This document shows positions 1-63,898 of a stretch of DNA of 64,000 nucleotides, one piece after another. Below the pieces are notes generated by a model that did no database searches, was not told where the DNA came from, and saw only the letters and a program-made list of their open reading frames with translations. This DNA is from Cyanidioschyzon merolae. Its lineage: Eukaryota. Within the stretch, counting starts at the first letter, position 1. Each line of letters opens with the position of its first letter. Location of the stretch: the NCBI GenBank assembly GCA_000091205.1, contig AP006500.2. One strand, 5' to 3'. The position numbers and the translations under genes were made by a program.

Positions 1-3000
1 CGCCCATTCGTTCCAGGACGCATCTGCTGACGCTCGCTCTGCCATGGAACGCATATGCACATCGCTCATCGGCATACTGCGCTGCGAATCAGAGGCACGG
101 CATGTACGCCGCTGCATCGCGCTTGCGCTGCCGATACTGGAATCGCCACGCGCTGAACCGATACCGCGCAGCGCCTGACACAGCGCCCCGTACTCCGGAA
201 GCAACGCGCATCGCAACGGGGCCTGCAACCATCGCAAGCATACCGCATGGCCATACAGGACATGCTCCGGAACAAGCGACCAACCCGAACGAACGTATTG
301 TCGGCAGCGCTTGACAAGCAGGCTCCGGTCCGGGACGCCAGCTGCTCCCGCTTCAACCATGCGAAAGAGTCGTTCCTCCAGAGACGCCCCCAGGGATGCG
401 ACGCTGGAGCAACACCAACGCTCCAGTCGCTGCAAAGGCGTCTGTCTCTGTGCCCTTGGCATCCTAGACGCAGCTGCACCGACCCAATGCTGGAGAAGCA
501 CCAGATCACCCACCCAGAGCGTATGTCGATGTCGATGTCGATGACGCTGGCATGCCGTCTGCAGCACGCTACCCCGACGCACGGCATCCAGCGCATCAAC
601 CAGCAACAGCCACAGCTCCGTGCAATCCGCCTCCAGGCACAGGTCTAGTGCAGCGCGCCAAAAGGCGATCTCCTGATCATCACCAACGACGTTTCCTGCG
701 GTCGATGCCTGCACGCATGGGACACGTGTCCCGAATGGAGGCCATGCGTGCGCCGACGATGCGTGCATCCCCATGCTCGCAGTTCGTGCGCTGGATACCC
801 GCCATGCTTCCTCACCAGTACTTGTTGTGAAAGCGTCTTCCGTCGATGGGGAACGGTGTATGCCTTCTGTGGCGAGGTTAGGCGCGACGGTATCATCAGA
901 CGCAGCGGGTATCGGGTTTGATGCGTTGCTCCAAGGCGAGCCCGGAAACGCAAGGCCGTAACGAAAAAGCGCGGAAAGCACTGGGTCAGTCGCAAACAAC
1001 TGCATCCAGTCGGCGCTGGGGGCCTTAGCAAGGTAGCGCAGCGGTAGCGAACGACATGTGAGGCCCTTCACCCCGTGAGGATCCCGCAGATACGATAAAT
1101 GGCCGGCGTGACGTCGCACGTACACTACGTAGGCCAAATAGGTATTTGCAAGGGGCTCTATTTCTCGCAGAGCTTCCGCGCTCAGCGAAACTGACCAGTA
1201 GCGCGGAGAGCGGATCACGAGCTCGTGCCAGCTATCCAAGGCCGGTAGCAAACACGGCGTCCAGTCTCGATAACGAACCGGGACGGCGTTCGATGTTCCG
1301 GTGCTGGTGCTGGAGACCATCATGACCTCCACCGGCACCGGGCAAGGTGTACGAGTGTCGGCGTCGAGCGTCACAAAGCAGCGCGCTTCTGCTGCCAGCA
1401 CGTACAAGTGACGGAGCGCCTGCAGGTGGTACTGGTTATCGCTAGGCGCGGCTGGATATCGAGGATACAGCGCTGCCAACAGGAGCGCCGTCTGCAGACG
1501 ATGACAACTACTGAGCGCCACTGTTCCACCGCCCAGGAACACAAGACCTAGCGCCAAATGCCGAGCTAGGTGGTTTCCATAGGTTTCACCGCTTGTCGTC
1601 CGAGACAAGGTCGACGGCCGCGTCGCGCCTGCCATTCCACTGGACGTCAACCCAGCGACAATTCCAGTGGCACCTCGTCGACAGAGCAGCCGTCGCAAGC
1701 GCCGATATACAGAGTGCGTTCCGTGACCCGCGCACACCACGGCCATAGCAATGCTCAGGTTATCAATGCAAGCGAGAAGCCACGGCGCTGCGGAACTGTT
1801 GGCACTAGCTGTGTAGCGGAGGTCCACCAGGTCGAGCAGCTTTTCCAGGATGCGTCTCGCTTGCGGATGAGCGGTACCTGCCAGTTTCAGGGCCATCGCC
1901 AATGCCTGTCCCGTCAAGGCCAGAAGCATGTAGAGCCGCACGACAGCAGGGCGCTGAGGCGCTCCGCTGCCCAGCAAATCCGCCGAGCTGCGCGCTGCAG
2001 ACTCGATCTGCTCGGTTTCCGCTGGCACCACAGGATCGTTGGCAACGGCCACATACCACCGGCTGATCCGGCTTGTACCGGCTCCTGTGGCGAGGCCCTG
2101 TGAACGAAGCGTCGAATTCTCCTCCCGAGGCTGATCGCCACGGTGCGCAGCTTCTCGATTTCTGTCCGCTTGCCACTGGGCAGCCAATGGTGCCGGCAAC
2201 TCAGAGAGCATCCAGTCCCAACTGGGACTCATCGCGTCCCAGCGAATGAGTGCTGCTGCAAGCGAGCGCAGCAGCACCAGTTCCGGGCGTAGCAGCCACA
2301 AGGCTCGCTGCCCACTGCGCGGCGGACCCAGTTTTCGGGCCATGGCCTCATCGTTGCTGCGCAGGTACCAGACTGTCAGGGCCATCAGGGCACCCACAGC
2401 AGCAGCAGAAGCATCACTGGGGATACGCTCGGGATCGAGCAGCGCCTGCGGGCCGCTATCCACGGCGGGCATGCTACTCGTTGTGATTCCCGCGCGGAAT
2501 AATGATGATGTGGAAAATGATGATGATATTGATAATGATGGTGATGATGCTCTACCTTGTTCTGTTTCTCCTTCTGCTCCGATGCGCACCGATGACCACG
2601 AGTCGTCCGCTTCAAGACCACTACGGCTTTCTAGACGAGCGCCACGCCCTAGTGTCCCGGTTACCGAATCGTATCCAGCTCGAGTTGGCAACCTCGTGGT
2701 TGCATACGATGCACCATCATCATCACCATTATTATAGTCGTCGTCGTCTTCATTCCCGAGCGCTGTTGGCGCTCCACCTGGAACATTCGCTTGCAACCGC
2801 GTCGTCGTCGCACCCAATGCTCCATCCGTTAGACCACTCGCAAGAACACCAGGAACATCATGTGGAACAGGCGCATTAGCAGTAGCAGCATGCGTACCGG
2901 GAGCAGCGTTCGTTTCCCCATGAACAGTACCAGCAGTACCACTACGCCTTTCACGACGGGCGACAGGACGACGCTCCTCACGAGCGGGCAATTTAGCCGA

Positions 3001-6000
3001 GCTCAAACGCATTGGTGCATCGTCTGCATCACCGGCACCGGTACGCGTCACTAGTGCCACCAGACTGCCAACATAGCGTCGAGCGGCTGTCGCGGGACCT
3101 GTCACCATGTCGCTGACGTTCGCTCCTGTTGCAGCGCTGCGCTGTTCGCTTGCAGCCTCTGGCAAGCCCACCAGTCCGAGTGCCAGTCCAGCGGCCAGCG
3201 CATGCGCCTCACGGTCGCGACGGACACTCCAGGGCCAACCGCTGGTATTGTTGGTGTTGCTGGTGCCGGCTGCCGAGCCTGCGAAACCGCCACTCGCTGC
3301 CATCACTCCGGCACCAAGAGAACCGGTAGCAGGTGCAGCTGCACCTGTCGAAGCCGCAGCAGCAATGGAGGATGCCATCGCCACACCGGCTCCGTCGCAG
3401 AGTTCCACAAACAAACCCTCGAGGATAGCTTTGCGTCCACTGCAGGCAAACACAAGACCCATTGCCAACACTGCAGCGCTCTGAACCGCTGGTGATACAT
3501 CCCAGTCGGGTTGTGCAAATCCGGTAGGATTGAAGGCGCGAATATGCAGACCCGCCAGACGCGCAACCAACGCGTGCGCCGTGCCGCCGTACGAAGCCCC
3601 GAGTCCCAACAACAACGCGATGCTCGTCAGCTCATGTCGAGGTAACAGGTACGCATACCAGTCGGTAACCTGAAGCTGCCGCAAATGCCCGTGCAGACCC
3701 AGAGCCAAAACGAGTCCAGCGTGCGACGCAGTTGGTCGACTCGGCTTCTGTTGACGGATCCAGGCGCGAGTCACAGGGACCTGGGCGGTAAACGCCAGCT
3801 CCTGCTGCGCTGGCACACCACTCCGGGTCGCTGACGAGCCCCCAGATGCCTCGGGCGCGCCAGGGACTAGTCGACCGCGGATCCAGGTCGGAAAGCGAGT
3901 GCTGCTCGGCCGCAACCGCAGACCTGCTGCTACAGCGTTGTGGAACGCGCCCCATTCAAAGTAAGCAGCTGGTAGTACGCTAGCATCCAACTGGATGGGC
4001 GTCGATCGCTGCGGCAGTCGTCCGGAGAGCACCAACGGTGGCACCAGCAGCGTCTTGGTAGAGTCATCCACTGTTCCTGTCCAGGCGGTGAAAGCGCCTC
4101 GACCTATCGGGGCGGCGAGCGTGCGCTGTGCACTGGCAAAGAGCTGTGCTTGCACCTCGGATGGGGACAATAATGGCGACGACGACGACGACCCCAGTGT
4201 TGTTGTTTCGGTTGTTGCTGCAGTCGCTGCTGGATCAGGGTCGGTGAGCAACACGGGCACTGCCGAACGCAGCAGACGCTGGACTTGCCAGAGTCGTCGA
4301 TCAGCGCGAAACCGCAACCAGGGTATGATGCTGGTTAGTTCACAGCCATCGAGGTGATTCGGATGGACGACACCACGACCTCCCTGTTGTCGTCGTCGTC
4401 GTCGTCGACAACGGCGATCGTGATGATGATGGTGATAATCGTAGCGCTGCGGGATGGCATGCGTCGCAGCACTAGTTCCGGCAGCAGACGGGAACGAGCG
4501 TTCACGAGAGGGCCCAGGATCCGCCCTGAACAGCGCTACTGAATTGCCGTCGTCATCGACATCTTCATCATCGATGCCATCGTCATCGTCATCGATGTCG
4601 ATGTCGTCATCGTCGAGGAACAGCGCCCCTTCGACATCATCATCGTCATCATCGTCATCAGTGCCGTGGTGGTGGCGACGGTGGTGGTGTTCCGGATGCT
4701 TCGCTATAGCCAGCGCGGATGCAGAGCTCGACGGCATCCAGGCACGAAGAGGAGCAGCACCATTCGAGCTGCTTTTGGTGAAGGAGGAGGCAGCAACGCG
4801 CCCGGGTCCAGCGCTGGATGCATACAGGTCGCTCGTCACCTGAGCAGCAAAGCGCTCAACGGAAGGATTCAGCCACAGTCGAGAGGTGATGTTTGTTCCG
4901 AGCGCTTCACGGGACGCTGCCCCGCTCGCACGAGTCGCGCTGAACCAGGTAGCTCCCTGGACACTGCCGGAGCCCGCTCCAGTAGGCGAAAGGCCGCTCT
5001 GGAGGCGCAGCATCGCCATCTCTGGTTCGGGGAGCGCTGGGAGCCATCCCGCTACAGCTGCAGCACTAGAAACCACGCCAGCTGCCGCCAGCTCTGAATC
5101 AGCATCCGAATTGCCGGCACCAGGATGCACTTGTGGAGCGGGCTCGGAGCGCAGCCCCGCTAAAGCGTGTTGCAGCGGCAGTGCGATGCCCACTGGTAAG
5201 CGAGCGAGCGTACGCGCGTCAAGACGTATTCCCTCCTGGTGAAGGCTAACCAGTCCAGCGTCACAGGGATGCTGTAGCGGTACGGAAACCTCTGGTATAG
5301 CAGACTGCTCTGCTACAATCGTCTCGGTCGTGGAGTCCAGAGCAGCGGTTCCCACTGGACCAACACCAGCGTGCGCCGGCGACAGCTCAGTTGACGCTCC
5401 TGTGGATTCACCGGATGACGTCGATTGTTGACAGTGCTCTAGACGCTCGAAAAAAGTGACAAGTTGCGCAAGTCGAGCGACTGGATTCGGGAACTCATCT
5501 GGATGCCGGTCGTTCACGAACTCGCGCACCAGCGGTGCATCCAGTGGATGTCGCTCTGCAGAAAGACCAGAGGGAGCAGTGGAAAGCGTAGAAGCAAACG
5601 CGGCGGGAAACTGCGCCAGCATGTCCTTCGCGGGCCTGCAGCACGCTCTATCTGTTTTGTATATGCCCAGTAGTAATGGCAAACGATCCTGCAACCAGTC
5701 AAAGATGTTCAACGGTGCTTCCGAATCATCGGTGAGATATAAAGACGACTCCACGCGCTGCTGATTGCTCTGCTGATCGCTAATGCTGGCTACTTCCGCA
5801 TCCACCGGGAGGTGCAAAGACGTTTCCGCACCTTGTCCATTGTGCTGGTGATCGCATATCCGAGCTTCTTCCGGATCAGCGGTGCTGCTCCTTTCACTAG
5901 CCTTGTCCAGAGAGCGTGAATGTCGAAGCAAACTGGATGCTTCCAAGGACTCATCGCTTGAAGCAGGGTGCAATGTTCCCGAAGAAACACTCGAACGCTC

Positions 6001-8739
6001 ACATGATTCCGGCATATCGCGTTGATAGTACTCCCAGTAACGTAGAGCGTTTGCCGCTAGTGCCACTTTTTTCAGGAAATGATTCACGGACAGCAACGCT
6101 TGCCAATAGATTTGGTCGAGCTTGAATGCTTCGTAGAGGGTATGAAACGCCACCAGCAGCGATTTCCATGGAACTGTTTCAGGGAGCTGCGCACCAGCGT
6201 ACTGTAGCTCACAGCGTAGGCGTAGCAGACACTCGCCCGAAGCAGTACCGCTAGGTTCTGGTCCCGTTTCCCAGCAGAATGGGCAGCCTTTGACGCGCTC
6301 TGCACGTCTTGTCGTAACGACAGATGAGCCTTGCATTGGTGTTCCGCGGTAGCATCGCGAACAAGGTTGTTCCCTTGTCCTTGCATCGCAGGCAGCACGT
6401 CCAGTCGAAGGTGCCTCGGCGGCGGCGGCAGCAGCAGCAGCAGCAGCAGCAGTTGTAGTTGTAGCGGTCTCTGGCGTGCACTTGGCTGCATCGCTTCTAG
6501 TTGCTGTTGATGCTTTTGCTGTTCGTTGTTCTGTACTAACGCGCTCGTCACCGCGGTGACTTGCCGCCGACGAGCACGACCGCTCGCTGCCTCGCGTCCA
6601 GGGCGCCGACTGTGTCGCCAGTCGGAGTGGCGACAATGAAAGTTGACCTTGTGAATCGTGGATCGCTTCAGAGGCGCTCCCCGTGGCTATATGTTCGCGT
6701 TCAGGGACCAGTGACGAGTGCATCTCGTCGAAAGCGCTTGCCGAAATGTCCCAAAGCCAGCCGGGAAGTACGCCAGGCGCTGGTCGCGCGCTTGCCTTTA
6801 AAATACTTGTCTTTGGCGAGGACAAGTCCGGCACGCTTCGCCAGTGACTTGCGTCGGTGGGTGCAGCGCCACCGCTTGCCCGCTGTCCAGCATTACGACA
6901 ACTGCTGCTGCTGCTGCTGCTGCTGCTGCAAAACGTTCCCCGTTCTGGATAGCGCTGATGCATCCACTGGTGTCGATGAGGTTGCTGCAGAGCCCGCCAA
7001 AACGCATCCAATTGTTTTTCAAGTTCGTTTGAAGCGGTGCCTTGCGTCTCGGCAGCTTGGGGCCTCCAGACCTCCTCGATGAACGCCAGATAGATTTGCA
7101 TACTGACTGCCGCAGGCAGCGTTCTTCGACAAGCGCCCCAGAGCTGGTGCATAATCGGAAGCGGCTCACGGAGTAGACGACTCAAACAGACCCGATACTG
7201 TTGGCCATCTGCGAGCGTTAACGTGAAACGACACTTCACTGCATTGGCGAGCCAGACTGGTGCAGCTGTCTTACCGAGCAGCCGCAGATACCCGACGGGT
7301 TCAGCACCGAACTGGAGACGCAGTCGCGGCTTGGGCGTTCCCCCAAGGAGGACGAGCAGATCCAACATGCCGGGTCGCAAAGCCTCGACCGCCGCCATTG
7401 CCTGCACGCCACGTTGAACAAAGACAAGCTCCGCGCTCTTCATCAACCGCGGCTGTGCTGGCGTTGAAAAGAGCTCCAAGCCACGCAGCGTCTCACCAAT
7501 GAGCAGACACAGCAACGGTGAAATGTGCACGCCTCTTCCTCCGGCACCTGACCAGGGATGTGCGAAGCAGGCCGCTCGAAACGTATCGTTGGGGTCCACC
7601 AGACCCTGTTCCCAGACCAAAGCCAGTTGGACCGGCCCGCTATCGAACGTTGTATCGTTCTGCGTATCTCCGGTTGTTCGATCCTGCAGAAGATACACCC
7701 GAATGGTGTGGTGCTCGGTCGGCGACGACCTCGACGTTCCGTGACAGCGTTGCGTTACCAGCACTGGATAGCGAGCGTCCGTGAAAACAATGCGTTCCTG
7801 GATCTCGAGTTCTTCCAGTTCGTACGGCTCATTCAACGGATGCCACAGCACCAGTTTGCGTCCATCGGCGAGGGCAACTACCAGACCTCGCGGTAGCGCA
7901 TGAAGCGCCAGTATGACGGCACGAGCGGTCGGCATTGCTTCCATCATCATGGTCGTCATTGGAGGATACAAGCGACTGGAACTTGAGCCAGTCAACCTTT
8001 GGGTGCTCTCTCGCTGGACCCCGGTGAGCAGCGTTGACGTCTGCTCTGAAACTGCGGACTTGTGCAAGCCGCTCGGCAGACTCGCAACGCCACGTCGTGG
8101 ACCGCCTTGACTGAAGCTGTTCGAACCACCCTTCGCGACAAATGAGACACTATGCATCCTTCCGTCCTGCCAGTTGAATACTTGAAGTAGGCGACCAGCA
8201 TCCTGAACCGAGCACCAGCCGACAAAGGAGCGTGCGCCCTCCGCATCGGCTGCTGGTTGCCAAAGTGACCGCCCCGATCCAGGAGGTAGCTCCTCCGCCG
8301 AGGCGTCGCAAAAGTTCGCAAAAGCAGCCCACGCATGCATAGGTCCGAGCCGATCCCCGGCACTTGTCGGTACGTCGGAGCAGCACACTGCACATGCTGG
8401 GAAGCTTTGGGCTCCTCGCCGTACCGCGAACGCCTCGGCGTCCGTTTCGAACCAGGTATATCGAACGAGATCCGCAGATCGCCACTGTAAAGCCCAGGTC
8501 AAGTCCTTGGAAGCGTCGCCACCTCGGCTACGCTGTTTTGGATGCCAAACAAGCGCCTCTTCCGGTGCGCAGAGGAGGTTCTCCGAGTGGCCGCCTCGCG
8601 AGCTGCAGGAAAAGAACCAGACGCGGTCTGCGATGCCGTGCTGGTCCACCAAACGATAGAGGTAGTCACGATCGCTCCCCTGAGACAGTTCCAGGCAACC
8701 AGAGGCAGTGACGGACACAGGAATAGTCACATTCGCCAT
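1..8739 (-). CDS. Giant protein, partial (C-terminus beyond window start). Continuous minus-strand reading frame from ~9075 down to 1 with no stop (>=3000 codons). First in-frame ATG ~8739. Contains acidic/His/Ser/Ala homopolymer tracts and Gly-rich hydrophobic PC-repeat-like segments (…HLARHLALGLVFLGGGTVAL…, …AAVLAMGLVFACSGRKA…) reminiscent of APC1/Rpn2-type proteins.
   Basis: Manual translation of the minus strand in the frame with codon starts at positions equal to 0 mod 3 gave no stop over ~150 consecutive 60-nt lines. The first in-frame stop upstream (TAA on the minus strand) is at ~9076-9078. The six-frame track has no minus-strand ORF in this frame anywhere below 9075, consistent with an ORF excluded for lacking a stop inside the window. 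A 9-kb stop-free frame is not expected by chance even in GC-rich DNA. The APC1-like assignment rests only on remembered PC-repeat character. Confidence 0.55.
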   Translation of the reverse strand, partial: MANVTIPVSVTASGCLELSQGSDRDYLYRLVDQHGIADRVWFFSCSSRGGHSENLLCAPEEALVWHPKQRSRGGDASKDLTWALQWRSADLVRYTWFETDAEAFAVRRGAQSFPACAVCCSDVPTSAGDRLGPMHAWAAFANFCDASAEELPPGSGRSLWQPAADAEGARSFVGWCSVQDAGRLLQVFNWQDGRMHSVSFVAKGGSNSFSQGGPRRGVASLPSGLHKSAVSEQTSTLLTGVQRESTQRLTGSSSSRLYPPMTTMMMEAMPTARAVILALHALPRGLVVALADGRKLVLWHPLNEPYELEELEIQERIVFTDARYPVLVTQRCHGTSRSSPTEHHTIRVYLLQDRTTGDTQNDTTFDSGPVQLALVWEQGLVDPNDTFRAACFAHPWSGAGGRGVHISPLLCLLIGETLRGLELFSTPAQPRLMKSAELVFVQRGVQAMAAVEALRPGMLDLLVLLGGTPKPRLRLQFGAEPVGYLRLLGKTAAPVWLANAVKCRFTLTLADGQQYRVCLSRLLREPLPIMHQLWGACRRTLPAAVSMQIYLAFIEEVWRPQAAETQGTASNELEKQLDAFWRALQQPHRHQWMHQRYPERGTFCSSSSSSSSSCRNAGQRASGGAAPTDASHWRSVPDLSSPKTSILKASARPAPGVLPGWLWDISASAFDEMHSSLVPEREHIATGSASEAIHDSQGQLSLSPLRLATQSAPWTRGSERSCSSAASHRGDERVSTEQRTAKASTATRSDAAKCTPETATTTTAAAAAAAAAAAEAPSTGRAACDARTREQPCSRCYRGTPMQGSSVVTTRRAERVKGCPFCWETGPEPSGTASGECLLRLRCELQYAGAQLPETVPWKSLLVAFHTLYEAFKLDQIYWQALLSVNHFLKKVALAANALRYWEYYQRDMPESCERSSVSSGTLHPASSDESLEASSLLRHSRSLDKASERSSTADPEEARICDHQHNGQGAETSLHLPVDAEVASISDQQSNQQRVESSLYLTDDSEAPLNIFDWLQDRLPLLLGIYKTDRACCRPAKDMLAQFPAAFASTLSTAPSGLSAERHPLDAPLVREFVNDRHPDEFPNPVARLAQLVTFFERLEHCQQSTSSGESTGASTELSPAHAGVGPVGTAALDSTTETIVAEQSAIPEVSVPLQHPCDAGLVSLHQEGIRLDARTLARLPVGIALPLQHALAGLRSEPAPQVHPGAGNSDADSELAAAGVVSSAAAVAGWLPALPEPEMAMLRLQSGLSPTGAGSGSVQGATWFSATRASGAASREALGTNITSRLWLNPSVERFAAQVTSDLYASSAGPGRVAASSFTKSSSNGAAPLRAWMPSSSASALAIAKHPEHHHRRHHHGTDDDDDDDDVEGALFLDDDDIDIDDDDDGIDDEDVDDDGNSVALFRADPGPSRERSFPSAAGTSAATHAIPQRYDYHHHHHDRRCRRRRRRQQGGRGVVHPNHLDGCELTSIIPWLRFRADRRLWQVQRLLRSAVPVLLTDPDPAATAATTETTTLGSSSSSPLLSPSEVQAQLFASAQRTLAAPIGRGAFTAWTGTVDDSTKTLLVPPLVLSGRLPQRSTPIQLDASVLPAAYFEWGAFHNAVAAGLRLRPSSTRFPTWIRGRLVPGAPEASGGSSATRSGVPAQQELAFTAQVPVTRAWIRQQKPSRPTASHAGLVLALGLHGHLRQLQVTDWYAYLLPRHELTSIALLLGLGASYGGTAHALVARLAGLHIRAFNPTGFAQPDWDVSPAVQSAAVLAMGLVFACSGRKAILEGLFVELCDGAGVAMASSIAAAASTGAAAPATGSLGAGVMAASGGFAGSAAGTSNTNNTSGWPWSVRRDREAHALAAGLALGLVGLPEAASEQRSAATGANVSDMVTGPATAARRYVGSLVALVTRTGAGDADDAPMRLSSAKLPAREERRPVARRERRSGTAGTVHGETNAAPGTHAATANAPVPHDVPGVLASGLTDGALGATTTRLQANVPGGAPTALGNEDDDDYNNGDDDGASYATTRLPTRAGYDSVTGTLGRGARLESRSGLEADDSWSSVRIGAEGETEQGRASSPSLSISSSFSTSSLFRAGITTSSMPAVDSGPQALLDPERIPSDASAAAVGALMALTVWYLRSNDEAMARKLGPPRSGQRALWLLRPELVLLRSLAAALIRWDAMSPSWDWMLSELPAPLAAQWQADRNREAAHRGDQPREENSTLRSQGLATGAGTSRISRWYVAVANDPVVPAETEQIESAARSSADLLGSGAPQRPAVVRLYMLLALTGQALAMALKLAGTAHPQARRILEKLLDLVDLRYTASANSSAAPWLLACIDNLSIAMAVVCAGHGTHSVYRRLRRLLCRRGATGIVAGLTSSGMAGATRPSTLSRTTSGETYGNHLARHLALGLVFLGGGTVALSSCHRLQTALLLAALYPRYPAAPSDNQYHLQALRHLYVLAAEARCFVTLDADTRTPCPVPVEVMMVSSTSTGTSNAVPVRYRDWTPCLLPALDSWHELVIRSPRYWSVSLSAEALREIEPLANTYLAYVVYVRRHAGHLSYLRDPHGVKGLTCRSLPLRYLAKAPSADWMQLFATDPVLSALFRYGLAFPGSPWSNASNPIPAASDDTVAPNLATEGIHRSPSTEDAFTTSTGEEAWRVSSARTASMGMHASSAHAWPPFGTRVPCVQASTAGNVVGDDQEIAFWRAALDLCLEADCTELWLLLVDALDAVRRGSVLQTACQRHRHRHRHTLWVGDLVLLQHWVGAAASRMPRAQRQTPLQRLERWCCSSVASLGASLEERLFRMVEAGAAGVPDRSLLVKRCRQYVRSGWSLVPEHVLYGHAVCLRWLQAPLRCALLPEYGALCQALRGIGSARGDSSIGSASAMQRRTCRASDSQRSMPMSDVHMRSMAERASADASWNEWA
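4380..4700. repeat. Imperfect GAY/CAY/CGN trinucleotide microsatellite block, coding within the giant minus-strand ORF (poly-Asp, poly-His and poly-Arg tracts)
   Basis: tcgtcgtcgtcg…, catcatcgtcatcatcg…, gatgtcgatgtcg… runs. The minus-strand translation gives DDDDIDIDDDDDGIDDED, HHHHHDRRCRRRRRRQQ and HHHRRHHHGTDDDDDDDD. Confidence 0.8.
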
Positions 8740-8984
8740 AAAGGCCGGCAGTGCAAGTCCAGCGCAGCGGTCCACCACGAAGAGCAGTTCTGTAGCAGAC
8801 TGGCGCCGCGCGTTACCGCCGCCAGTGGTGGTGCACGAGTCGCAACGACTCCAACGCGCGGGAAAACGGCTCGGAAGCGCTCGGTCATCAGCACAAAGCT
8901 TGTGTTGTGTGCCTGCGGGACTGGTCACCGATGAGCATGGTGCAGAGAACGAGGCTCCGGGAGCGCCTCCTGAGTGTTCTGTGG

Positions 8985-9998
8985 ATGCAGCGGACGAGCG
9001 CGGCTTGGAACGATCCAGCAGGAGCGCACAGGTCCTCAGGGACGCTCGTTGCGTCCAGTTTTCTACGAAGCGAGTTTAGGCGAAATGCTGGGACAAGCGC
9101 CACGACTTGCAGTGCGGGCAGTACAGTGCACACACAGAGGCACCGCTCTACGGACGGAGACAACCTACGCGTGAACTCCAGGAAACCGGTAGAGGTCACT
9201 GGGGAAGCGCTGCGGCTTGGGGCAGGCACACGCGCTTTCCCGGGAGCGGTTCACGCTTCTCTGCAGCAGGATCGTACTTTTTCTGCAGGCACGCAAGCGT
9301 CTTCCGCTGGTGGCTCGCAGACGCCTCGTGCAGTTGCCGGTGCAGCAGCGCCAACTGCTGCGAGCGACTCCGATGGTGGAGCTGCTGCTTCGGAGACAGC
9401 GCAAGGTACCACACGTGCCAAGTTTGAGCAACAACCGCTTCCGTCGTCAGCGCACAGTGTATCGGGACGAACACTCAGCGGCCTAGCGTATTTGAAAGCC
9501 CTTTGGGCTGAATATCCCAAGCGAGGCTTTTGGGGTACCCTGATGGCGATCCGTACCGGACGGGTGGGCATGTATGACACCTGCCTCGTTGGCATCGATG
9601 AGTTCGGAAACCGCTACTATGAAAATCGTGCAGCCAGCTACATGCGTGATCGCTGGTGTGAGTACAGGGACGGCAAAAACGCAGACCCAGTCTGTATACC
9701 GCCTGAGTGGCACGCGTGGCTCCACCATTTTGTGGATGATCCACCGGTGTCTGCAAACGACAAGTGGGTGCGTCCGTTGTTTGTGAAACCTCCGCATCCG
9801 AACTATTCCGGAACATCGCAGGCGTATGCGCCTCGGAATAGTCCCCGGAGCCCCGCGTACATTGGACATCTGGCGACTTCCGTGGTTGAGTCCTGGCAGG
9901 CGCAGACTACGCTACAGAGGCAGCGCAAGCCGCGGGCCTTAACTCCTGCCCGTGAAAAGACATCCCCAGAACCGGATCAGCGATTGGACTTGCCTTGA
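8985..9998 (+). CDS. NDUFA12: NADH dehydrogenase [ubiquinone] 1 alpha subcomplex subunit 12 (complex I B17.2/NDUFA12 family). Conserved domain in roughly 9480-9998, preceded by a long S/T/A/R-rich N-terminal region. Start codon uncertain.
   Basis: The C-terminal part of track ORF 8907..9998 reads …GTLMAIRTGRVGMYDTCLVGIDEFGNRYYEN…RWCEYRDG…PPEWHAWLHHFVDDPP…, matching the NDUFA12 signature (G.LVG.D.YGN.YYE … PEWH.WLH..D.PP). The ATG at 8985 was verified in the sequence. Upstream Ms of the track ORF overlap the 5' end of the divergent giant gene and are probably not coding. Confidence 0.75.
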   Translation: MQRTSAAWNDPAGAHRSSGTLVASSFLRSEFRRNAGTSATTCSAGSTVHTQRHRSTDGDNLRVNSRKPVEVTGEALRLGAGTRAFPGAVHASLQQDRTFSAGTQASSAGGSQTPRAVAGAAAPTAASDSDGGAAASETAQGTTRAKFEQQPLPSSAHSVSGRTLSGLAYLKALWAEYPKRGFWGTLMAIRTGRVGMYDTCLVGIDEFGNRYYENRAASYMRDRWCEYRDGKNADPVCIPPEWHAWLHHFVDDPPVSANDKWVRPLFVKPPHPNYSGTSQAYAPRNSPRSPAYIGHLATSVVESWQAQTTLQRQRKPRALTPAREKTSPEPDQRLDLP

Positions 9999-10967
9999 GG
10001 TCCAAGAGATTTGTGTCCGGCTCGAAGAAGACTCGAAGAGGATTCGATTCGGGTACCAGAGCCGGATCAGGGAATGCTCTGGTCGACGCCGATTCGAAGG
10101 CGGATGTTTTTCAGCAGGAAAACGGAATCTACGAGCGAGGATGGATTGCGAAAAGTGCAGGATCTTTGCGAGCATACTACTGTAGGTTAGGTCTGGTTTC
10201 GCTTCGCGAGAATTGGAAGCATGTCTTGTTCGTTGAAAGAGGGAAAAGCGATACGACTCAGTACTGCATGTTGGTTTGTGTAGGCGCGCAAGGCATTTTG
10301 ATTTTTTGTGGAAATCATGAGCAGTCATGTGCATCATCCGCGTTGTATATGTTTGTGTGTCGAGGTGTGCGCTTGTTTTTCATGCGTGGCTGGAGCAGTC
10401 GCGTTGCGCACTCTACCATGGGAGCGTACGCTCATTTACGAGCACCGCTCGAGCAGGAGCAAGCACAAGGCTGCACGCCTCGAAAAATGCTTGCTTGCTC
10501 AGTGCGCTACCGGTTCAGCGGCATAACATACTGTATCTTGAGAGCGCTGGCTCTTTTCCGAGCATCACTCAAGCGGGAGCACCAGGATAGCACATGTTCG
10601 GTGAGGCATTGGAATGCGTCCATACTTGGCAGTATAATGAGTGCTACGCTGGTCTTTGGCCGAGACACCAGCTAGTTCGAATACTGTGCGTCGTTTGTGG
10701 GCGCTGCGCAGGCCGGCCCCCGAGCACGCCTTGTGAAGAGGGGCGTCTGCAAACCTGCGATGCGGATGCAATCGTCAAGCCGCTCGTTATCATGCGTTGT
10801 CTAAACGAACACGAGCTTGGACTAGTTGCTTCTGCGCGTAAAATTCCTCTCTCAGTGGAACGCACTGCCGCATAGCTCGCAGCGGCCGATAACGCTTGGT
10901 GTTCAGCTGCAGGGCACTGGAACCCTGAGCATCTGTGACAGATCCGCACCTACACCGCAAATGACGT

Positions 10968-11855
10968 TCAACGTTGTGACGGGACCAGCGATTCCGATAC
11001 CTGGCGAATCGCGGCAGTGAGCTGATCGGCTGTTAATGGTCTCCCGCGGCACTCCAGGAAATACAGCACCGGTTGTGATTTCGGCTCATGGGTGTAGAAT
11101 ATGGCAGTTACTAGGGTACTGGCTGTGTGCTCCTCCAGGGCACTTGGATCTACAACCAGACGCACGCCTGGGGAATCCAGGTCTTGTGGCGCGTCCGGAT
11201 GCACAACCAGAAACGTACGCGAATGGAGCCTGGCGATCATGGAGCATATTCTCTCGTCGGTATGGACACCTGTCGAATCGGGTCCTTCGCGTGCATCATG
11301 GTGCTCTTGACGCGCTTCGATACAGCGCGGTAGTATCTGCTGAATGCTTTCCAGGAACACATCGTGCAAACTTCCGTCTTCGTCGAGCACGCTAAGTTCC
11401 AGTTCCCAGCACCAAACGTCCACATTATACCCGCGAGGCTCAGAGGCGTAGCACTGCTCGATTATCGGATAAACGAGCTTCTCGAGGTATTCAGTTAGTT
11501 CCATAGCCTTGTGTGTGCAGCTTCGGCCGTAACACAAACCGGGAACTTGCACCGTTACTCGCCATGTAGTTGCAGGTCGAGCGCTAACGAGCACCTTAGA
11601 GTTCCCGTGACTCACTTGGACGACAGGGCACGAGCCCCGCTCACGACTACCGAGAAGCCAGCCACAGCCCCGGGTGGGTCGCGGTTCGTCGACCGTGCGA
11701 CCGTCGGGTCGGCGTTCACACGTCCAGAGCTCTCGGGTTCGGAAGCCAACGGGGTCGTGCAGCCGATCCATTTCAGCTGTATCATTTACAAGGGTGTCAA
11801 AGTCCATAGCGCGCAACTCGCTCTGTTCAAGACTGTCAAGACAAAAACGCCCCAT
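10968..11855 (-). CDS. Hypothetical protein (295-aa ORF; true start may be an internal Met such as MELTEYLEKLV…)
   Basis: Long ORF with protein-like composition, placed between convergent and divergent neighbours. No motif I can name. Confidence 0.35.
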   Translation of the reverse strand: MGRFCLDSLEQSELRAMDFDTLVNDTAEMDRLHDPVGFRTRELWTCERRPDGRTVDEPRPTRGCGWLLGSRERGSCPVVQVSHGNSKVLVSARPATTWRVTVQVPGLCYGRSCTHKAMELTEYLEKLVYPIIEQCYASEPRGYNVDVWCWELELSVLDEDGSLHDVFLESIQQILPRCIEARQEHHDAREGPDSTGVHTDERICSMIARLHSRTFLVVHPDAPQDLDSPGVRLVVDPSALEEHTASTLVTAIFYTHEPKSQPVLYFLECRGRPLTADQLTAAIRQVSESLVPSQR

Positions 11856-12130
11856 ACGAAATGTACGCTAGCAGCGCTGTGCACTGCGTACAAACGTCGC
11901 ACGTGGATCACTGCAACTTACGGGGTCTTGCATCTCAGTGGTGTTCGATCCACCAAGAGCGTATCGTGAAATGCCTTGTCGGGATTGATAGCAGATGCGT
12001 TTTGATGTGCATTCATATGAAGAAGTAAAAAATCTATGGGAAAGGTATAGATATGCAAGTCGCGGGTCCCAGTAGCTTATCACAGTCATCTACCTGAAAC
12101 GTATGAAATAATTCCCAGTTTGCCGACGAC

Positions 12131-16570: not shown

Positions 16571-16776
16571 AGCAAACCAAACGTTCGTTGATATGGGCTA
16601 GCGATGACGCTGTCCTTAACCAGAAAAATAAAGCAAGCTACGAAAAGACTGACGTTCCAACACCAACAACAGCAACAACAACAACAACAACAACGCAACG
16701 GTAGCGAAGCGCTCGTGGCTCGCCTTCGTGGGCATCCCCCGAGTACGCGATCGCAGAGCGCTGCTTCTCATAACCG

Positions 16777-16832
16777 GTGCGCGTGCCGCAGCAGCCGCCC
16801 TTTTGGTGGCTGCTGGGAGCGCCTGTGCGGAG

Positions 16833-16868
<36 letters not shown>

Positions 16869-18162
16869 CGCTGTTGCTGTGTCTATGGCCTCTCAGGGCA
16901 CTGAAACTGCCAATGAAACGCATTTGACGACGCGCCAGACCTCGACAATGCACTGGCACGTCTGGCGAACTGAGGTGGAGCGACTGCGACGACTGGTCAA
17001 GGAGCCGGCGCTCAAGTGGCCGAAGCTGTTGGTGCTCGACCTCAACGGATTGTTGGTTTGGCGGACGCCGTTGCGACCTCGCCCCGGGCAACGCGATGGT
17101 CCCATCGGGGCTTGCTATCAACGGCAGCCGGATGTGGTGACTAAGCGTTTCTGCATTTGGCGCCGACCTGGAGCGGTATCCTTTATGCGGTACGTTTTGG
17201 CTTGGTTCCACGTCGGGATATGGTCGACCGCCCAGCTGCCGAACGTGGAGGATATTTTGGCAACGCTTCTCACAGCAGAGCAAAGACGTGAGCTGGTATT
17301 CGTTATGGACCAAAAAGACTGCACCAAGGTCAGCCGGGCGTATGCCCCGGGCTCTTCCAGCAAACCGCTGATGTTGAAGGACCTGGAACGCCTGTGGAGT
17401 CGATATCAGGGTTTCTACCATATGGATAACACGTTGCTCATCGACGATGATCCCTACAAAGCGAGCGTCAACCCAGTATATACGAGCGTGCACCCGTCTC
17501 CATGGAAAGATCCCGATGTGCAGGGCACGGACACGTTTCTGTGCGAAGGGGGACGCTTTCGTGCGTTTCTGGAAGCGCTGCTCCACCATGACGGCAGCGT
17601 ACGTACGTTCGTCGCCAACCAGCAGATCATACCCGTAGAGCAAACGAGCAACGATGATGAACGAGGCGCTACCAATGATGCCCAGCTGCTGAGCGATACC
17701 GGTGCAGTGAGCACAAGTCTCGGTTCCAGAGCTGGGTTCGATCAGGAGCTGAGCACTGCCGATCCCAACCGATCGACTGGTGCCCAGTCTGTGACGGCAA
17801 AGTGTTTCGTGGGCGCACCAGCATGCGCACATGATGGTGAATCGAAGACCAGTGAGCCAAGCGCTCGGGATGATATCCTTTCAACGTCAACGGGATTGGA
17901 CGGCCCCGAGAAAGACGCACCCGCCAAAACAGCGTCCATGGATGCACTGGTGCCCTCGTTTTCGAATGAGCTTTCACGATTGCGTATCCATGACAAAAAT
18001 GAGGATGTTGGGGATGATACACGAATTCATGCGCAAGCGAATGGGCTAGCGGCATGCTCGTGCTCGATGCCATCGGTCTCGAGTACACCAGCGGATGCCG
18101 ATAAAACCAGCCGGCGTGACTCTGGGGAGACTTCACCAAACGCTGGAGCAGCGTCGCGCTAG
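16777..18162 (+). CDS. NIF/FCP1-homology (CTD-phosphatase-like HAD) domain protein. Probable ATG at 16885 after a poly-Ser tract. The catalytic motif I reads DLNGL instead of DxDx(T/V), so it may be non-catalytic.
   Basis: …WPKLLVLDLNGLLVWRT… aligns with the FCP1/SCP/TIM50 motif I (LVLDLDETLVHS). …FMRYVLAWFHVGIWSTAQ…, …KDLERLWSRY… and …SPWKDPDVQGTDTFLCEGGRFRAFLEALL… resemble the later conserved NIF-domain segments. The C-terminal ~180 aa are S/T/A-rich low complexity. Confidence 0.55.
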
Positions 18163-18494: not shown

Positions 18495-19193
18495 TGTGGA
18501 ATGCGCGCTGCAAACGTGTGTTGTTGATCGCTCGGAATCGATGCTGTGCTCGGGAGCTATGCCATTGTCGGACACGGAGCAGGGCACCAGTTTGCCCAGA
18601 GCAGCACGCACGACCTCGTTGCTCCACAACGAGAACAGCACGCTGCGACGAAGCACTCGGAGCGCCACGCGCTGACATCGCTCATGAGCGCTGCCAGAGG
18701 CCGTGAGCGCCTGGCGCAGTGCCCGCATCACCAACGCTACAGCTTCGCAGCGGACTCGGTACCATTGGTACCCAGGAGACGCGCAGAGAACATTGCGCTC
18801 CCACAAAAAGGCGCTCGCTTTCGGAGCCACGCCCCGCAGGCCGAGTCGAACGGCGACGCCTCGCGGCGTCCATCGGCTTTGAAGGCCGAGCCCGGCACCC
18901 GCCAGAGATCAGCGGGGCGTAGAGCGGGGCACCGCGAATCATATGTAAAGGCGTGTGGCGATGCCGTGCACGAGATCGGAACTGTAAATAATGGTCGTTT
19001 TCTGGAATTTATTAGATATTGCGGACAAATCAGGATGAATAATGCCAAGCACATGCGCGCAACCCATCTCACCACTGCATCGTTTTTGACGTAGTCGCGA
19101 AAACGCGTCTTTGCCACCTGAGGGGCCGGTGACGCGCCCTCGTGGACAGGGCGCCGAAGCAAACCCCGTCTGCCCCTGCGTGGGAACGAGTGC

Positions 19194-61690: not shown

Positions 61691-63898
61691 CTAGTTTTTC
61701 GCTCCGACGATGCTCCTGCGTTTGCTTAGCACCTTAAACATGCGTATGCTTTGTGGTGTGACTTCGACAAACTCGTTTTCACCGCTGATGTATTCAAGCG
61801 CATCGTCTAGCGTGAGCGTGCGAATCCCCTGCAACGTTTTCACGACCTCTTTGGTTGCGCTGCGATGATTCGTCAGCTGTTTCACCCGACAGACGTTCAC
61901 TCGCAAATCCTCCGGATACTTATTCTCGCCAACAATTTGGTTTTCATAGACTTCAGCACCTGGCGCGACAAACAACTGGCCGCGTTCTTGCGCAGCCTCG
62001 ACGCCATAGGTGGTCACTCGACCAGTCTCGTGGGCGAGCAGTGAGCCAACTTCCCGCAGTCGAACCTGACCCACGTAGGGCCGGTACGCTGCAAACGATG
62101 TATGAATGATTGCGGTGCCCCGAGTCAGGGTCAGGAGAGCATTGTTCAGACCAAATAATCCGCGCGTTGGTACGATATACTCCACAATACTGTACTGCTC
62201 ATTGTCCTGACTGTGCGTGAGGTTCAACATTTCTCCCCGTCGCTTGGCCAGCGCGTCCACCACCGCGCCCAGATACTCCTCGGGAATTTGAACCTCGACG
62301 TGATCAAACGGTTCAAGAGGCGTATTCGTTTCCGGGTCCATTTTAAAGATGACCTCAGGAGCACCCACAATCATTTCGAATCCTTCTCGTCTCATGGATT
62401 CGATGAGGATTGTCAAATGCAGTGCTCCTCGGCCGCAGATGGTAAACGAGTCCGCCTTTTCGCCATCTTGAATCCGTAAGGCTACATTGGTACGCGTCTC
62501 GCGTTCTAGACGCTCGCGAAGTTGCCGGCTGGTGAGGAATCGTCCCTCGCGCCCCGCAAAGGGCGTCGTATTGATCGCCAAGGACATGCGCACTGTGGGC
62601 TCCTCAATCTGCACGGGTGGCAGCAGCCGCGGATCGGCAGCATCACAGATCGTTTCGCCGATGCGGATGTCGTCTACACCAGCAACCATGACAATGTCGC
62701 CAGCGTGCGCGCTCTCCGCGCTCACTCGACCGAGATTCTCGAAAAGGAACACCTCATCCACGCGGGCGGTCCGAAGTTCCGCCTCGTCCTTTGCAGGCGT
62801 GCCAACGCGGACAGTTGCACCTTTGCGCAGTGTTCCCGCGTGAATGCGCCCGATGCCAAGAATACCTTTGTAATCGTCGCTGCTAATGTTGGAGACAAGT
62901 AACTGCAGGGGCGCATCTAGTGCGACTCTCGGGCGCGGCAGTCTAAGGATCTCTTCGAACAGGGGTCCCATGTCGTTCGCCAGCTGGTCCGGTGCATACC
63001 CAGCAACGCGCTTCAGCGCTGACGCATACACCACCGGAAAGTCGGCCTGCTCATCCGACGCACCCAGCTCCACAAACAAATCAAAGGTTTTGTTCACGAC
63101 GAAAACAGGTCGGGCAGCGGGGCGATCGATCTTGTTCACAACGACAAGAACGCGTTGGCCCAGGCGCAACGCCTCCCTTAGAACATAACGGGTCTGCGGG
63201 CGTGGACCCTCGACGGAATCGACCACGAGGAGCATCGCATCCGCCATGGAGAGGACTCGCTGCACCTCACCGCCAAAGTCTGCGTGACCCGGCGTATCGA
63301 TCACGTTGATGCGGACTCCACGGTACACGACTGCAGTATTCTTGGACAAGATGGTGATGCCTCGCTCGCGTTCTAGCTCGTTACTATCCATGACAAGACT
63401 AGAAACAGTCTGGTTTTCGCGGAAGACTTTTGCGTGGTGCAGAATTGCATCGACCAGCGTCGTTTTCCCGTGATCAACGTGGGCACAAATGGCAATGTTA
63501 ATAACGTCGTTGCGGGTTTTCAGTGCAGCTGACGCACGTGCAATAGCCTCTGGTATCGCAGAGGTGGTGCGCTCCGCCTGCGCTCGCAAGGCGCGTACCT
63601 GAAGCGTGTGTCGTGCGCTCCGCGGCAGCTGCCGAAAGCTCACTGGACGCCAACCGGGCCGACCAAACGACGTTGAACGATGCCAGAAAGAAGAATTTGG
63701 GCAGACTATAGTCTTTGGCAAAGAAAGATGACCGCTTGGCACAAAGCCGCTCAGTTTATGGGACATGCTTTTTGTTCTCAGGGCGCTGTTAGGAAACACC
63801 GACCGCGTATCCGGCGACCGCTTGTTCCATGCGATTGCCACGGGTGACGGCGGTTCACCGAGGGCCAGCCAGCGACGCAAACTCTGAATTATGGACAT
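61691..63898 (-). CDS. typA: TypA/BipA-type translational GTPase (EF-G/LepA superfamily) with a ~130-aa N-terminal extension (organellar, likely plastid, targeting)
   Basis: G1 …INIAICAHVDHGKTTLVDAIL…; G2/G3 …RGITILSKNTAVVYRGVRINVIDTPGHADFGGEVQRVLSMADAMLLVVD…; G4 …VVVNKIDRP…. Downstream domains have BipA-like layout, …ICGRGALHLTILIESMRREGFEM… and the C-terminal BipA-specific region. The N-terminal 130 aa are S/R/P-rich and non-conserved. Confidence 0.85.
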   Translation of the reverse strand: MSIIQSLRRWLALGEPPSPVAIAWNKRSPDTRSVFPNSALRTKSMSHKLSGFVPSGHLSLPKTIVCPNSSFWHRSTSFGRPGWRPVSFRQLPRSARHTLQVRALRAQAERTTSAIPEAIARASAALKTRNDVINIAICAHVDHGKTTLVDAILHHAKVFRENQTVSSLVMDSNELERERGITILSKNTAVVYRGVRINVIDTPGHADFGGEVQRVLSMADAMLLVVDSVEGPRPQTRYVLREALRLGQRVLVVVNKIDRPAARPVFVVNKTFDLFVELGASDEQADFPVVYASALKRVAGYAPDQLANDMGPLFEEILRLPRPRVALDAPLQLLVSNISSDDYKGILGIGRIHAGTLRKGATVRVGTPAKDEAELRTARVDEVFLFENLGRVSAESAHAGDIVMVAGVDDIRIGETICDAADPRLLPPVQIEEPTVRMSLAINTTPFAGREGRFLTSRQLRERLERETRTNVALRIQDGEKADSFTICGRGALHLTILIESMRREGFEMIVGAPEVIFKMDPETNTPLEPFDHVEVQIPEEYLGAVVDALAKRRGEMLNLTHSQDNEQYSIVEYIVPTRGLFGLNNALLTLTRGTAIIHTSFAAYRPYVGQVRLREVGSLLAHETGRVTTYGVEAAQERGQLFVAPGAEVYENQIVGENKYPEDLRVNVCRVKQLTNHRSATKEVVKTLQGIRTLTLDDALEYISGENEFVEVTPQSIRMFKVLSKRRSIVGAKN

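What the first reader, a model, noticed from the sequence alone, without database searches (positions are those of the whole stretch)
1..9075. A 9-kb stop-free reading frame (>=3000 codons) that the ORF track misses because it runs off the window edge
Reading the minus strand in the frame whose codons start at positions equal to 0 mod 3, I found no stop codon from ~9075 down to position 1. The track lists no minus-strand ORF in that frame anywhere in this interval, which fits an ORF excluded for lacking a terminal stop inside the window. This makes the first 9 kb a single giant gene rather than the patchwork of 60-180-aa ORFs shown. The encoded protein has long Asp, His, Arg, Ser and Ala homopolymer tracts. 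It also has Gly-rich hydrophobic repeats (ALGLVFLGGG, AMGLVFACSG) of the proteasome/cyclosome (PC) kind found in APC1 and Rpn2, followed by a conserved-looking segment (…YHLQALRHLYVLAAEARCFVTLDADTRTPCPVPVEV…). An APC1-like identity is a guess. If correct, the protein is unusually expanded (>2900 aa with the C-terminus still missing).
Basis: seen in the sequence. Interest (0 to 1): 0.6.

Follow-up and report, generated by a model that had tools for sequence, protein, structure and literature searches.

The report
Red alga's oversized APC1 gene
The 9-kb open frame is real, but it is the already annotated, intron-less APC1 gene (the scaffold subunit of the cell-cycle ubiquitin ligase APC/C) of the red alga Cyanidioschyzon merolae, made about 1,000 residues longer than usual by fast-evolving low-complexity insertions.

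Summary
Observation confirmed. The minus-strand frame has no stop from 9075 down to 1 (3,025 codons). About 98 stops are expected by chance (P~1e-43), and the other five frames have 65-106. The ORF tool omits it only because it runs off the window edge.

The window is Cyanidioschyzon merolae 10D chromosome 18. The ORF, from the ATG at 8739, matches all 2,913 in-window residues of GenBank BAM82351.1/XP_005538387.1 (2,928 aa, "similar to meiotic check point regulator"). Only 15 residues and the stop lie beyond position 1.

The APC1 guess is right. phmmer gives E=3.5e-70 against human APC1 (2e-90 with a two-species profile), with matches in the same order through Mid-N, the PC domain and the beta-sandwich. 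hhalign gives 98.6% probability for the N-terminal WD40 domain. Eme et al. 2011 already placed CMR081C in their Apc1 tree.

The protein is long for the family: the median is 1,870 aa, and only 2 of the 150 best representatives are longer. The extra ~980 residues are spread over at least seven places. They are Ala/Ser/Thr/Gly/Asp-rich, poorly conserved, and vary in length among natural alleles.

Verdict: a known gene, correctly guessed; low interest. Side note: a tRNA-Sec gene at 18831-18918 (-).

The parts
1..8739 (-). Coding sequence of C. merolae APC1 (CMR081C; BAM82351.1), residues 1-2913 of 2928. The start codon ATG is at 8739-8737. The last 15 codons and the stop lie beyond window position 1.
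   Evidence: Identical to P0099 over all in-window residues. The start Met aligns with the start of the 45%-identical ortholog P0002. E=3.5e-70 against human APC1.
8740..9078 (-). In-frame, ATG-free leader of 112 codons between the upstream stop (9078-9076) and the start codon. It is probably 5' UTR and promoter shared with the divergent NDUFA12-like gene, not coding sequence.
   Evidence: There is no ATG in this stretch. The public annotation and the P0002 ortholog both start at MANV/MVPF. The neighbouring + strand gene's first ATG is at 8931.
6976..8334 (-). N-terminal APC1-type WD40 propeller plus the start of Mid-N (residues 136-588).
   Evidence: hhalign of the cyanidialean N-terminal profile against 87 APC1 N-termini: probability 98.6%, E=7.2e-16, in the same order as frog APC1 124-675. 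Reversed and shuffled controls give E>=0.085. About 46% identity to P0002.
5137..6160 (-). Mid-N domain blocks (residues 860-910 and 1170-1201), separated by a low-complexity insertion.
   Evidence: BLASTP anchors to frog APC1 763-813 and 937-968, inside its Pfam Apc1_MidN hit at 669-986. The profile hit to human APC1 831-896 has E=7.9e-4.
4315..5134 (-). Largest charged low-complexity insertion (residues 1202-1474), containing the D8, D5, H5 and R6 tracts. It is 211 aa longer than the vertebrate equivalent.
   Evidence: Residues 1401-1450 are entirely absent from P0002. A Q indel next to the R6 tract occurs among natural alleles.
958..4315 (-). PC-repeat (proteasome/cyclosome) domain and beta-sandwich (residues 1475-2594). 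A 304-aa Ala/Gly/Ser/Thr/Asp-rich insertion at residues 1812-2115 (nt 2395-3306) interrupts it.
   Evidence: phmmer domains against human APC1 977-1198, 1273-1343 and 1455-1664. Pfam PF21282 APC1_3rd at 2453-2521, 28.3 bits against a cut-off of 27. Insertion accounting.
1..957 (-). C-terminal region (residues 2595-2913 in the window), probably the APC1_C domain with an insertion, and including an (RH)4 repeat.
   Evidence: hhalign against APC1 C-termini is weak but in the same order (probability 12.7%, E=0.0023). Residues 2690-2850 are conserved with P0002.

Best explanation
Window 1-8739 (minus strand) is the single-exon gene for APC1 of Cyanidioschyzon merolae 10D (CMR081C, BAM82351.1, 2,928 aa). 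[quoted passage not shown] Shown here: the protein keeps the APC1 domain order of N-terminal WD40 propeller, Mid-N, PC-repeat domain and beta-sandwich, followed by a C-terminal region. Inferred from established knowledge of human and yeast APC/C structures: it acts as the platform that holds the cullin-RING module (Apc2/Apc11) and the TPR lobe (Apc8/6/3). Its extra ~980 residues are not a new domain. They are at least seven separate low-complexity, probably disordered, expansions between conserved blocks. They evolve fast, and replication-slippage-type in-frame indels change their length. Because C. merolae genes almost never have introns, the whole protein reads as one 9-kb open frame.
For: Organism: 7 of 9 complete ORFs in the window are exact matches to C. 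merolae 10D proteins on a 1,253,087-bp record. Gene identity: P0099 (BAM82351.1) equals the window translation over 2,913 aa. APC1 homology: E=3.5e-70 against human APC1 in solved APC/C structures, 2e-90 with a profile, as 5-7 pieces in the same order. Pfam APC1_3rd passes its cut-off. hhalign shows the N-terminal WD40 domain at 98.6% probability, E=7e-16, with clean controls. 1,337 representative proteins match at E<=1e-10. Eme et al. 2011 place Cmerolae@CMR081C in their Apc1 tree. Coding constraint: pN/pS=0.30 against a 99.3%-identical natural variant. Seven full-length natural alleles of 2,926-2,931 aa keep the frame, and all five indel sites lie in low-complexity tracts. Nature of the expansion: +97, +136, +211, +54, +247, +92 and +143 aa relative to frog APC1. 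In the insertions, identity to the P0002 ortholog is 19.8% with 403 of 1,068 positions gapped; in the core it is 47.7%. FWYILMV content is 18% in the insertions and 31% in the core.
Against: No expression, splicing or protein data were available, so transcription as one mRNA is inferred, not shown. The C-terminal APC1_C domain was not confirmed (hhalign probability 12.7%). Pfam PC_rep, ANAPC1 and Apc1_MidN models do not reach significance on this protein. The AF2 model of the N-terminus was unusable (pLDDT 28.6). Disorder of the insertions is inferred from composition and poor conservation only. Assignment of the tag CMR081C to this ORF rests on its position just before CMR084C and on the single Apc1 sequence for C. 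merolae in that tree. I did not see a record that links the tag to the accession.
Confidence: 0.95

Rival explanations
1. The inserted ~1,000 residues are functional additions rather than neutral filler. They might be lineage-specific regulatory (phospho-)loops, analogous to the vertebrate Apc1 300s loop. Or they might be surfaces that compensate for the platform subunits Apc4 and Apc5, which were not detected in red algae.
For: Eme et al. 2011 found no Apc4 or Apc5 in red algae. Expansion at the same positions is shared with a second lineage only 45% identical overall (P0002, 2,546 aa). The insertions stay in frame in all natural alleles. At the position of the vertebrate 300s loop, C. merolae has only ~25 residues, but it has its own Ser/Thr-rich insert at residues 216-272.
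Against: The inserted segments are poorly conserved: 19.8% identity, and 38% of positions are gapped in the ortholog. They are compositionally simple and vary in length within populations. S/T-P density is no higher than in the core (0.84 against 0.70 per 100 aa), and there is only one full Cdk consensus site. The absence of Apc4 and Apc5 rests on BLAST-level searches from 2011 and may reflect limited sensitivity.
Confidence: 0.08
2. The long open frame is not one gene. It could be a chance or compositional artefact of GC-rich DNA, or a fusion of adjacent genes created by assembly or annotation.
For: High GC lowers stop frequency. Pfam detects only one small domain. GC3 is not strikingly raised (0.57).
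Against: About 98 stops are expected and none is seen (P~1e-43), while the other five frames have 65-106. Independent metagenome contigs from natural populations carry the same intact frame. A 45%-identical ortholog is aligned in the same order from the first Met to the C-terminus, in conserved synteny. APC1 homology runs in the correct order from residue 136 to beyond 2594.
Confidence: 0.01

Closest known systems
Human ANAPC1 (APC1/TSG24), 1,944 aa, solved within APC/C cryo-EM structures (e.g. PDB 5g04, 4ui9, 5khu, 6q6h)
   Same: Same domain order: WD40 propeller, Mid-N, PC-repeat domain, beta-sandwich and a C-terminal region. About 30% identity over the conserved blocks. Signature stretches are nearly identical, e.g. 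YGNHLARHLALGLVFLGGG / YGFHLAHHMALGLLFLGGG and DNQYHLQALRHLYVLAAE / DNRYHLQALRHLYVLAAE.
   Different: About 980 aa longer, through at least seven low-complexity insertions. There is no long loop at the position of the vertebrate 300s regulatory loop, but there is a different insert at residues 216-272. The Pfam APC1_C, MidN and ANAPC1 models do not score on it.
Uncultured cyanidialean-like ortholog P0002 (2,546 aa; JGI metagenome 3300051397, locus L002)
   Same: 45% identity overall and 48-50% in the core. Same start position. Same synteny: NDUFA12-like gene divergent upstream and a CYP38-like cyclophilin convergent downstream. Also intron-less and also expanded at the same inter-block positions.
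   Different: 382 aa shorter. The inserted tracts differ in sequence and length; for example, the His/Arg/Asp tract region at residues 1401-1450 is absent.
26S proteasome subunits Rpn1 and Rpn2 (PC-repeat toroid proteins)
   Same: This rests on established knowledge of the family; Eme et al. list PC_rep for C. merolae Apc1.
   Different: No Rpn1 or Rpn2 structure appeared among the PDB hits; every significant hit is APC1. The WD40, Mid-N and beta-sandwich domains are specific to APC1.

Membership tests
APC1 (anaphase-promoting complex subunit 1) | Significant full-length sequence homology, in the same order, to experimentally defined APC1 | tested here: met
   phmmer against PDB: human APC1 E=3.5e-70; S. 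cerevisiae Apc1 (8a3t_C) 9.4e-29. A two-sequence profile gives 2e-90 and 1.9e-40. Matched pieces are in the same order in both proteins.
APC1 (anaphase-promoting complex subunit 1) | PC (proteasome/cyclosome) repeat domain | tested here: met
   Residues 1529-1790 and 2112-2450 align to human APC1 977-1198, 1273-1343 and 1455-1520, with conserved GL-x-F/Y-x-G repeat cores. The Pfam PC_rep model itself does not score on this protein, and scores only 22.9 bits on frog APC1.
APC1 (anaphase-promoting complex subunit 1) | APC1 beta-sandwich domain (Pfam PF21282 APC1_3rd) | tested here: met
   28.3 bits against a curated cut-off of 27, residues 2453-2521. The precomputed annotation of the 99% relative also lists PF27562 APC1_4th.
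APC1 (anaphase-promoting complex subunit 1) | N-terminal WD40 beta-propeller domain | tested here: met
   hhalign probability 98.6%, E=7.2e-16, residues 136-588 against frog APC1 124-675. Reversed and shuffled controls give E 0.085-0.82. This shows homology only; the fold was not confirmed because the AF2 model failed (pLDDT 28.6).
APC1 (anaphase-promoting complex subunit 1) | Mid-N domain (Pfam PF20518) | tested here: inconclusive
   Pfam gives no hit on the C. merolae protein, but 26.8 bits (cut-off 24) on its ortholog P0002. BLASTP and profile anchors at residues 860-910 and 1170-1201 match the frog and human Mid-N region, with E=5e-4 to 8e-4.
APC1 (anaphase-promoting complex subunit 1) | C-terminal domain (Pfam PF18122 APC1_C) | tested here: inconclusive
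   No Pfam hit. hhalign against 87 APC1 C-termini is in the same order but weak (probability 12.7%, E=0.0023).
APC1 (anaphase-promoting complex subunit 1) | Physical membership of the APC/C and a requirement for cyclin/securin ubiquitylation | not testable with these tools
   This needs co-purification or genetics in C. merolae. Other APC/C subunits (Apc2, 3, 6, 8, 10, 11, Cdc20, Cdh1) are reported in its genome (Eme et al. 2011).

The most novel reading that the evidence does not exclude
The cyanidialean APC1 expansions, conserved in position but not in sequence, could be functional. They might be disordered regulatory or scaffolding segments that partly replace the platform subunits Apc4 and Apc5, which have not been detected in red algae. 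That would give a structurally distinct, reduced APC/C platform built around an oversized Apc1.
Probability: 0.06. Interest if true: 0.55.

Novelty: already known. Interest (0 to 1): 0.12.

Why it matters
It matters little beyond quality control. The case shows that the first-stage reader can recover a real giant gene that a mechanical ORF list drops at a window edge, and can name it correctly from motifs alone. Biologically, the gene is already in GenBank and in a published Apc1 phylogeny. Two mildly useful points remain. C. merolae APC1 is among the longest in the family because of polymorphic low-complexity insertions. Its GenBank product name ("similar to meiotic check point regulator") is outdated and hides its identity. 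Because C. merolae is a tractable cell-cycle model with apparently few APC/C subunits, deleting the insertions would be an easy test of whether such expansions do anything.

Tried and rejected
(1) My first guess at the organism was a trypanosomatid, based on GC-rich, intron-less DNA. I rejected it once the neighbouring genes proved to be on alternating strands and the exact protein look-ups gave C. merolae 10D. (2) AF2 prediction of the N-terminal 600 aa from a two-sequence alignment gave pLDDT 28.6, so I did not use it and ran no fold search. (3) search for homologous proteins with the N-terminal two-sequence profile returned nothing, not even the two sequences it was built from. Low-complexity words probably filled the candidate list, so that search was wasted. 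(4) Pfam alone would have left the identification marginal, with one domain at 28.3 bits. The PDB sequence search and hhalign were decisive. (5) A literature search for the locus tags CMR080C-083C or for "meiotic check point regulator" in main texts found nothing. The tag CMR081C was found only in the supplementary tree files of Eme et al. 2011. (6) I looked for enrichment of Cdk sites in the insertions as a hint of regulatory loops and found none. (7) I initially counted 17 residues missing beyond the window edge; the correct figure is 15 plus the stop.
Full report
**Observation**

I translated the minus strand of window 1-12000 in all three frames. The frame is then open to position 1, which gives 3,025 codons. 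Over the same 9,075 bases the other five frames hold 65-106 stops each. The strand's base composition predicts about 98 stops, so log10 P(no stop) = -43.3.

The mechanical ORF list shows only 100-177-aa ORFs in other frames across this stretch. By its own definition it omits ORFs that run off the source. The reported homopolymer tracts (S9, A11, D8, D5, H5, R6, S5) and the quoted motifs are all present.

**Organism and gene**

Exact-sequence look-ups of nine complete ORFs elsewhere in the window returned seven exact matches to proteins of Cyanidioschyzon merolae strain 10D. All lie on one 1,253,087-bp record with CMR locus tags, i.e. chromosome 18. Examples are CMR084C, CMR106C, DNA polymerase zeta and Tam41. 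C. merolae is known for having almost no introns (my own knowledge of the genome papers), which explains a 9-kb single-exon gene.

The 90%-identity cluster around the best database hit contains BAM82351.1 / XP_005538387.1, 2,928 aa, named "similar to meiotic check point regulator". It starts MANVTIPVSV, which is the ATG at window 8739. It is identical to the window translation over all 2,913 in-window residues. Only LLVAWLPMLSEPETR and the stop lie beyond position 1. A 99.3%-identical metagenome contig (L001) shows the same end at DNA level.

The 112 in-frame codons upstream of the ATG (8740-9075) contain no ATG. They abut a divergent NDUFA12-like gene whose first ATG is at 8931. They are leader or promoter sequence, not coding.

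"Meiotic checkpoint regulator" (Mcpr) and Tsg24 are, to my knowledge, old names for mouse APC1. The TSG24 synonym is documented in PMC4944252.

**Is it APC1?**

- Pfam alone is marginal: only PF21282 (APC1 beta-sandwich) scores, at 28.3 bits against a cut-off of 27.
- A phmmer search against all PDB chains is decisive. Human APC1 from APC/C cryo-EM structures scores E=3.5e-70 and yeast Apc1 9.4e-29. The matched pieces are in the same order in both proteins and cover Mid-N, both halves of the PC domain and the beta-sandwich.
- A profile of the C. merolae protein and a 45%-identical ortholog (P0002) improves this to 2e-90.
The "conserved-looking segment" is the most conserved stretch of the family: DNQYHLQALRHLYVLAAE against DNRYHLQALRHLYVLAAE.
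- Neither Pfam nor phmmer detected the N-terminal domain, and an AF2 model from two sequences failed (pLDDT 28.6). I therefore compared profiles with hhalign, using the cyanidialean N-terminal alignment against the N-termini of 87 APC1 homologs. This gave 98.6% probability, E=7.2e-16, with residues 136-588 aligned in order to frog APC1 124-675. Reversed and column-shuffled controls gave E 0.085-0.82.
- The same test on the C-terminal domain was in the same order but weak (probability 12.7%, E=0.0023), so that domain is unconfirmed.

Eme et al. 2011 (PMC3195147) already include "Cmerolae@CMR081C" in their Apc1 tree files and list PC_rep as its domain. The tag fits the position just before CMR084C. 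I did not see a record that links CMR081C to BAM82351.1 directly.

**Is it one constrained gene?**

- Between the window and L001 there are 21 synonymous and 18 nonsynonymous codon differences, giving pN/pS = 0.30. There are two in-frame indels, -SSS and +GAAA.
- Seven full-length alleles from the cluster are 2,926-2,931 aa long and all keep the frame. All five indel sites fall in low-complexity tracts: poly-S, R6QQ, the GAAA repeat and Asp-rich runs.
- The distant ortholog P0002 (locus L002, 55.8% GC) aligns in the same order from the first Met to the C-terminus. It sits in the same gene neighbourhood, between an NDUFA12-like gene and a CYP38-like cyclophilin.

**Is it unusually large, and why?**

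An exhaustive HMMER search with the 1,181-aa PC-domain region found 1,337 representative proteins at E<=1e-10. Among the 150 best hits, the 105 proteins of at least 1,400 aa have a median length of 1,870 aa and a 95th percentile of 2,346 aa. Only two (3,508 and 3,652 aa) exceed 2,928 aa.

Relative to frog APC1 (1,948 aa), the surplus of 980 aa is spread as follows:

| C. merolae residues | Location | Surplus over frog (aa) |
|---|---|---|
| 1-859 | before the first Mid-N anchor | +97 |
| 911-1169 | within Mid-N | +136 |
| 1202-1474 | between Mid-N and the PC domain; holds the Asp, His and Arg tracts | +211 |
| 1475-1811 | within the first PC-domain block | +54 |
| 1812-2115 | between the two PC-domain blocks | +247 |
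| 2116-2594 | within the second PC block and beta-sandwich | +92 |
| 2595-2928 | C-terminal tail | +143 |

The core and the insertions also differ in character:

| Property | Insertions (1,068 aa) | Core |
|---|---|---|
| Most common residues | Ala 14.9%, Ser 13.6%, Gly 8.0%, Thr 7.9% | Ala 13.5%, Leu 13.3%, Arg 8.4%, Ser 8.1% |
| FWYILMV content | 18.3% | 31.2% |
| Identity to P0002 | 19.8% | 47.7% |
| Positions gapped in P0002 | 403 of 1,068 | 90 of 1,860 |

P0002 is expanded at the same positions but with different sequence. The expansion is therefore a set of fast-evolving, slippage-prone, probably disordered loops, not a new domain.

S/T-P sites are no denser in the insertions than in the core. 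At the position of the vertebrate 300s regulatory loop, C. merolae has only about 25 residues, but it carries a Ser/Thr-rich insert of its own at residues 216-272.

**Mechanism**

Shown: this is the APC1 ortholog, with the family's domain order.

Inferred from the human and yeast APC/C structures: it is the platform scaffold of the APC/C E3 ligase. It holds the Apc2/Apc11 catalytic module and the TPR lobe, and the complex is activated by Cdc20 or Cdh1 to ubiquitylate securin and cyclins.

Eme et al. report Apc2, 3, 6, 8, 10, 11, Cdc20 and Cdh1 in C. merolae, but no Apc4 or Apc5. This leaves a small chance that the expansions have a scaffolding or regulatory role. The poor conservation of the inserts argues against it.

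**Verdict**

The observation and the interpretation are both right, but the gene is already annotated and was already classified as Apc1. Novelty: already known. Interest: low.

**In passing**

The window carries a tRNA-Sec gene at 18831-18918 (-). ARAGORN calls it, and Rfam RF01852 scores it at 61.1 bits against a gathering threshold of 47. This fits the report that C. merolae retains most of the selenocysteine machinery (PMC6627142).

Noticed in passing
window 18831-18918 (-): A selenocysteine tRNA gene (anticodon TCA). It is the only tRNA ARAGORN finds in the 64 kb. Rfam RF01852 scores it 61.1 bits against a gathering threshold of 47, E=5.9e-10, with a full-length model match. Liang et al. 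2019 (PMC6627142) report that C. merolae keeps the Sec machinery except for one factor, so the gene is plausible. I did not check whether it is annotated in the public record or whether it is still functional.
   Followed up: partly
window 8739-8931; L002 9868-10001: APC1 and an NDUFA12-domain gene are arranged head to head, with only ~190 bp between their ATGs (132 bp between the called genes in the distant relative). The arrangement is conserved between lineages whose APC1 proteins are only 45% identical, with a CYP38-like cyclophilin convergent downstream. This suggests a compact shared bidirectional promoter.
   Followed up: partly
window 8907-9998 (+): The NDUFA12-domain protein is about 355 aa long, and the domain occupies only residues 227-330. 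As I recall, that is much longer than canonical NDUFA12 (~145 aa). I did not examine the ~220-aa N-terminal extension.
   Followed up: no
window ~595-620 (-), APC1 residues ~2731-2739: An (Arg-His)4 dipeptide repeat (QRHRHRHRHT) lies inside the otherwise conserved C-terminal region. It is largely absent from the P0002 ortholog.
   Followed up: no
L001 3266-12244: The metagenome gene callers, which use prokaryotic rules, start this eukaryotic gene at an upstream GTG and so add 63 spurious N-terminal residues (2,989-2,994 aa instead of 2,926-2,931 aa). Database lengths for this cluster are therefore inflated.
   Followed up: yes
window 16768-17832 (-) and 61691-63898 (-): These two long ATG-started ORFs are not exact matches to any protein in the collection, unlike the other seven tested. 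The second is a TypA/BipA-type GTPase by Pfam. The public gene models probably use a different start codon, but I did not check.
   Followed up: no
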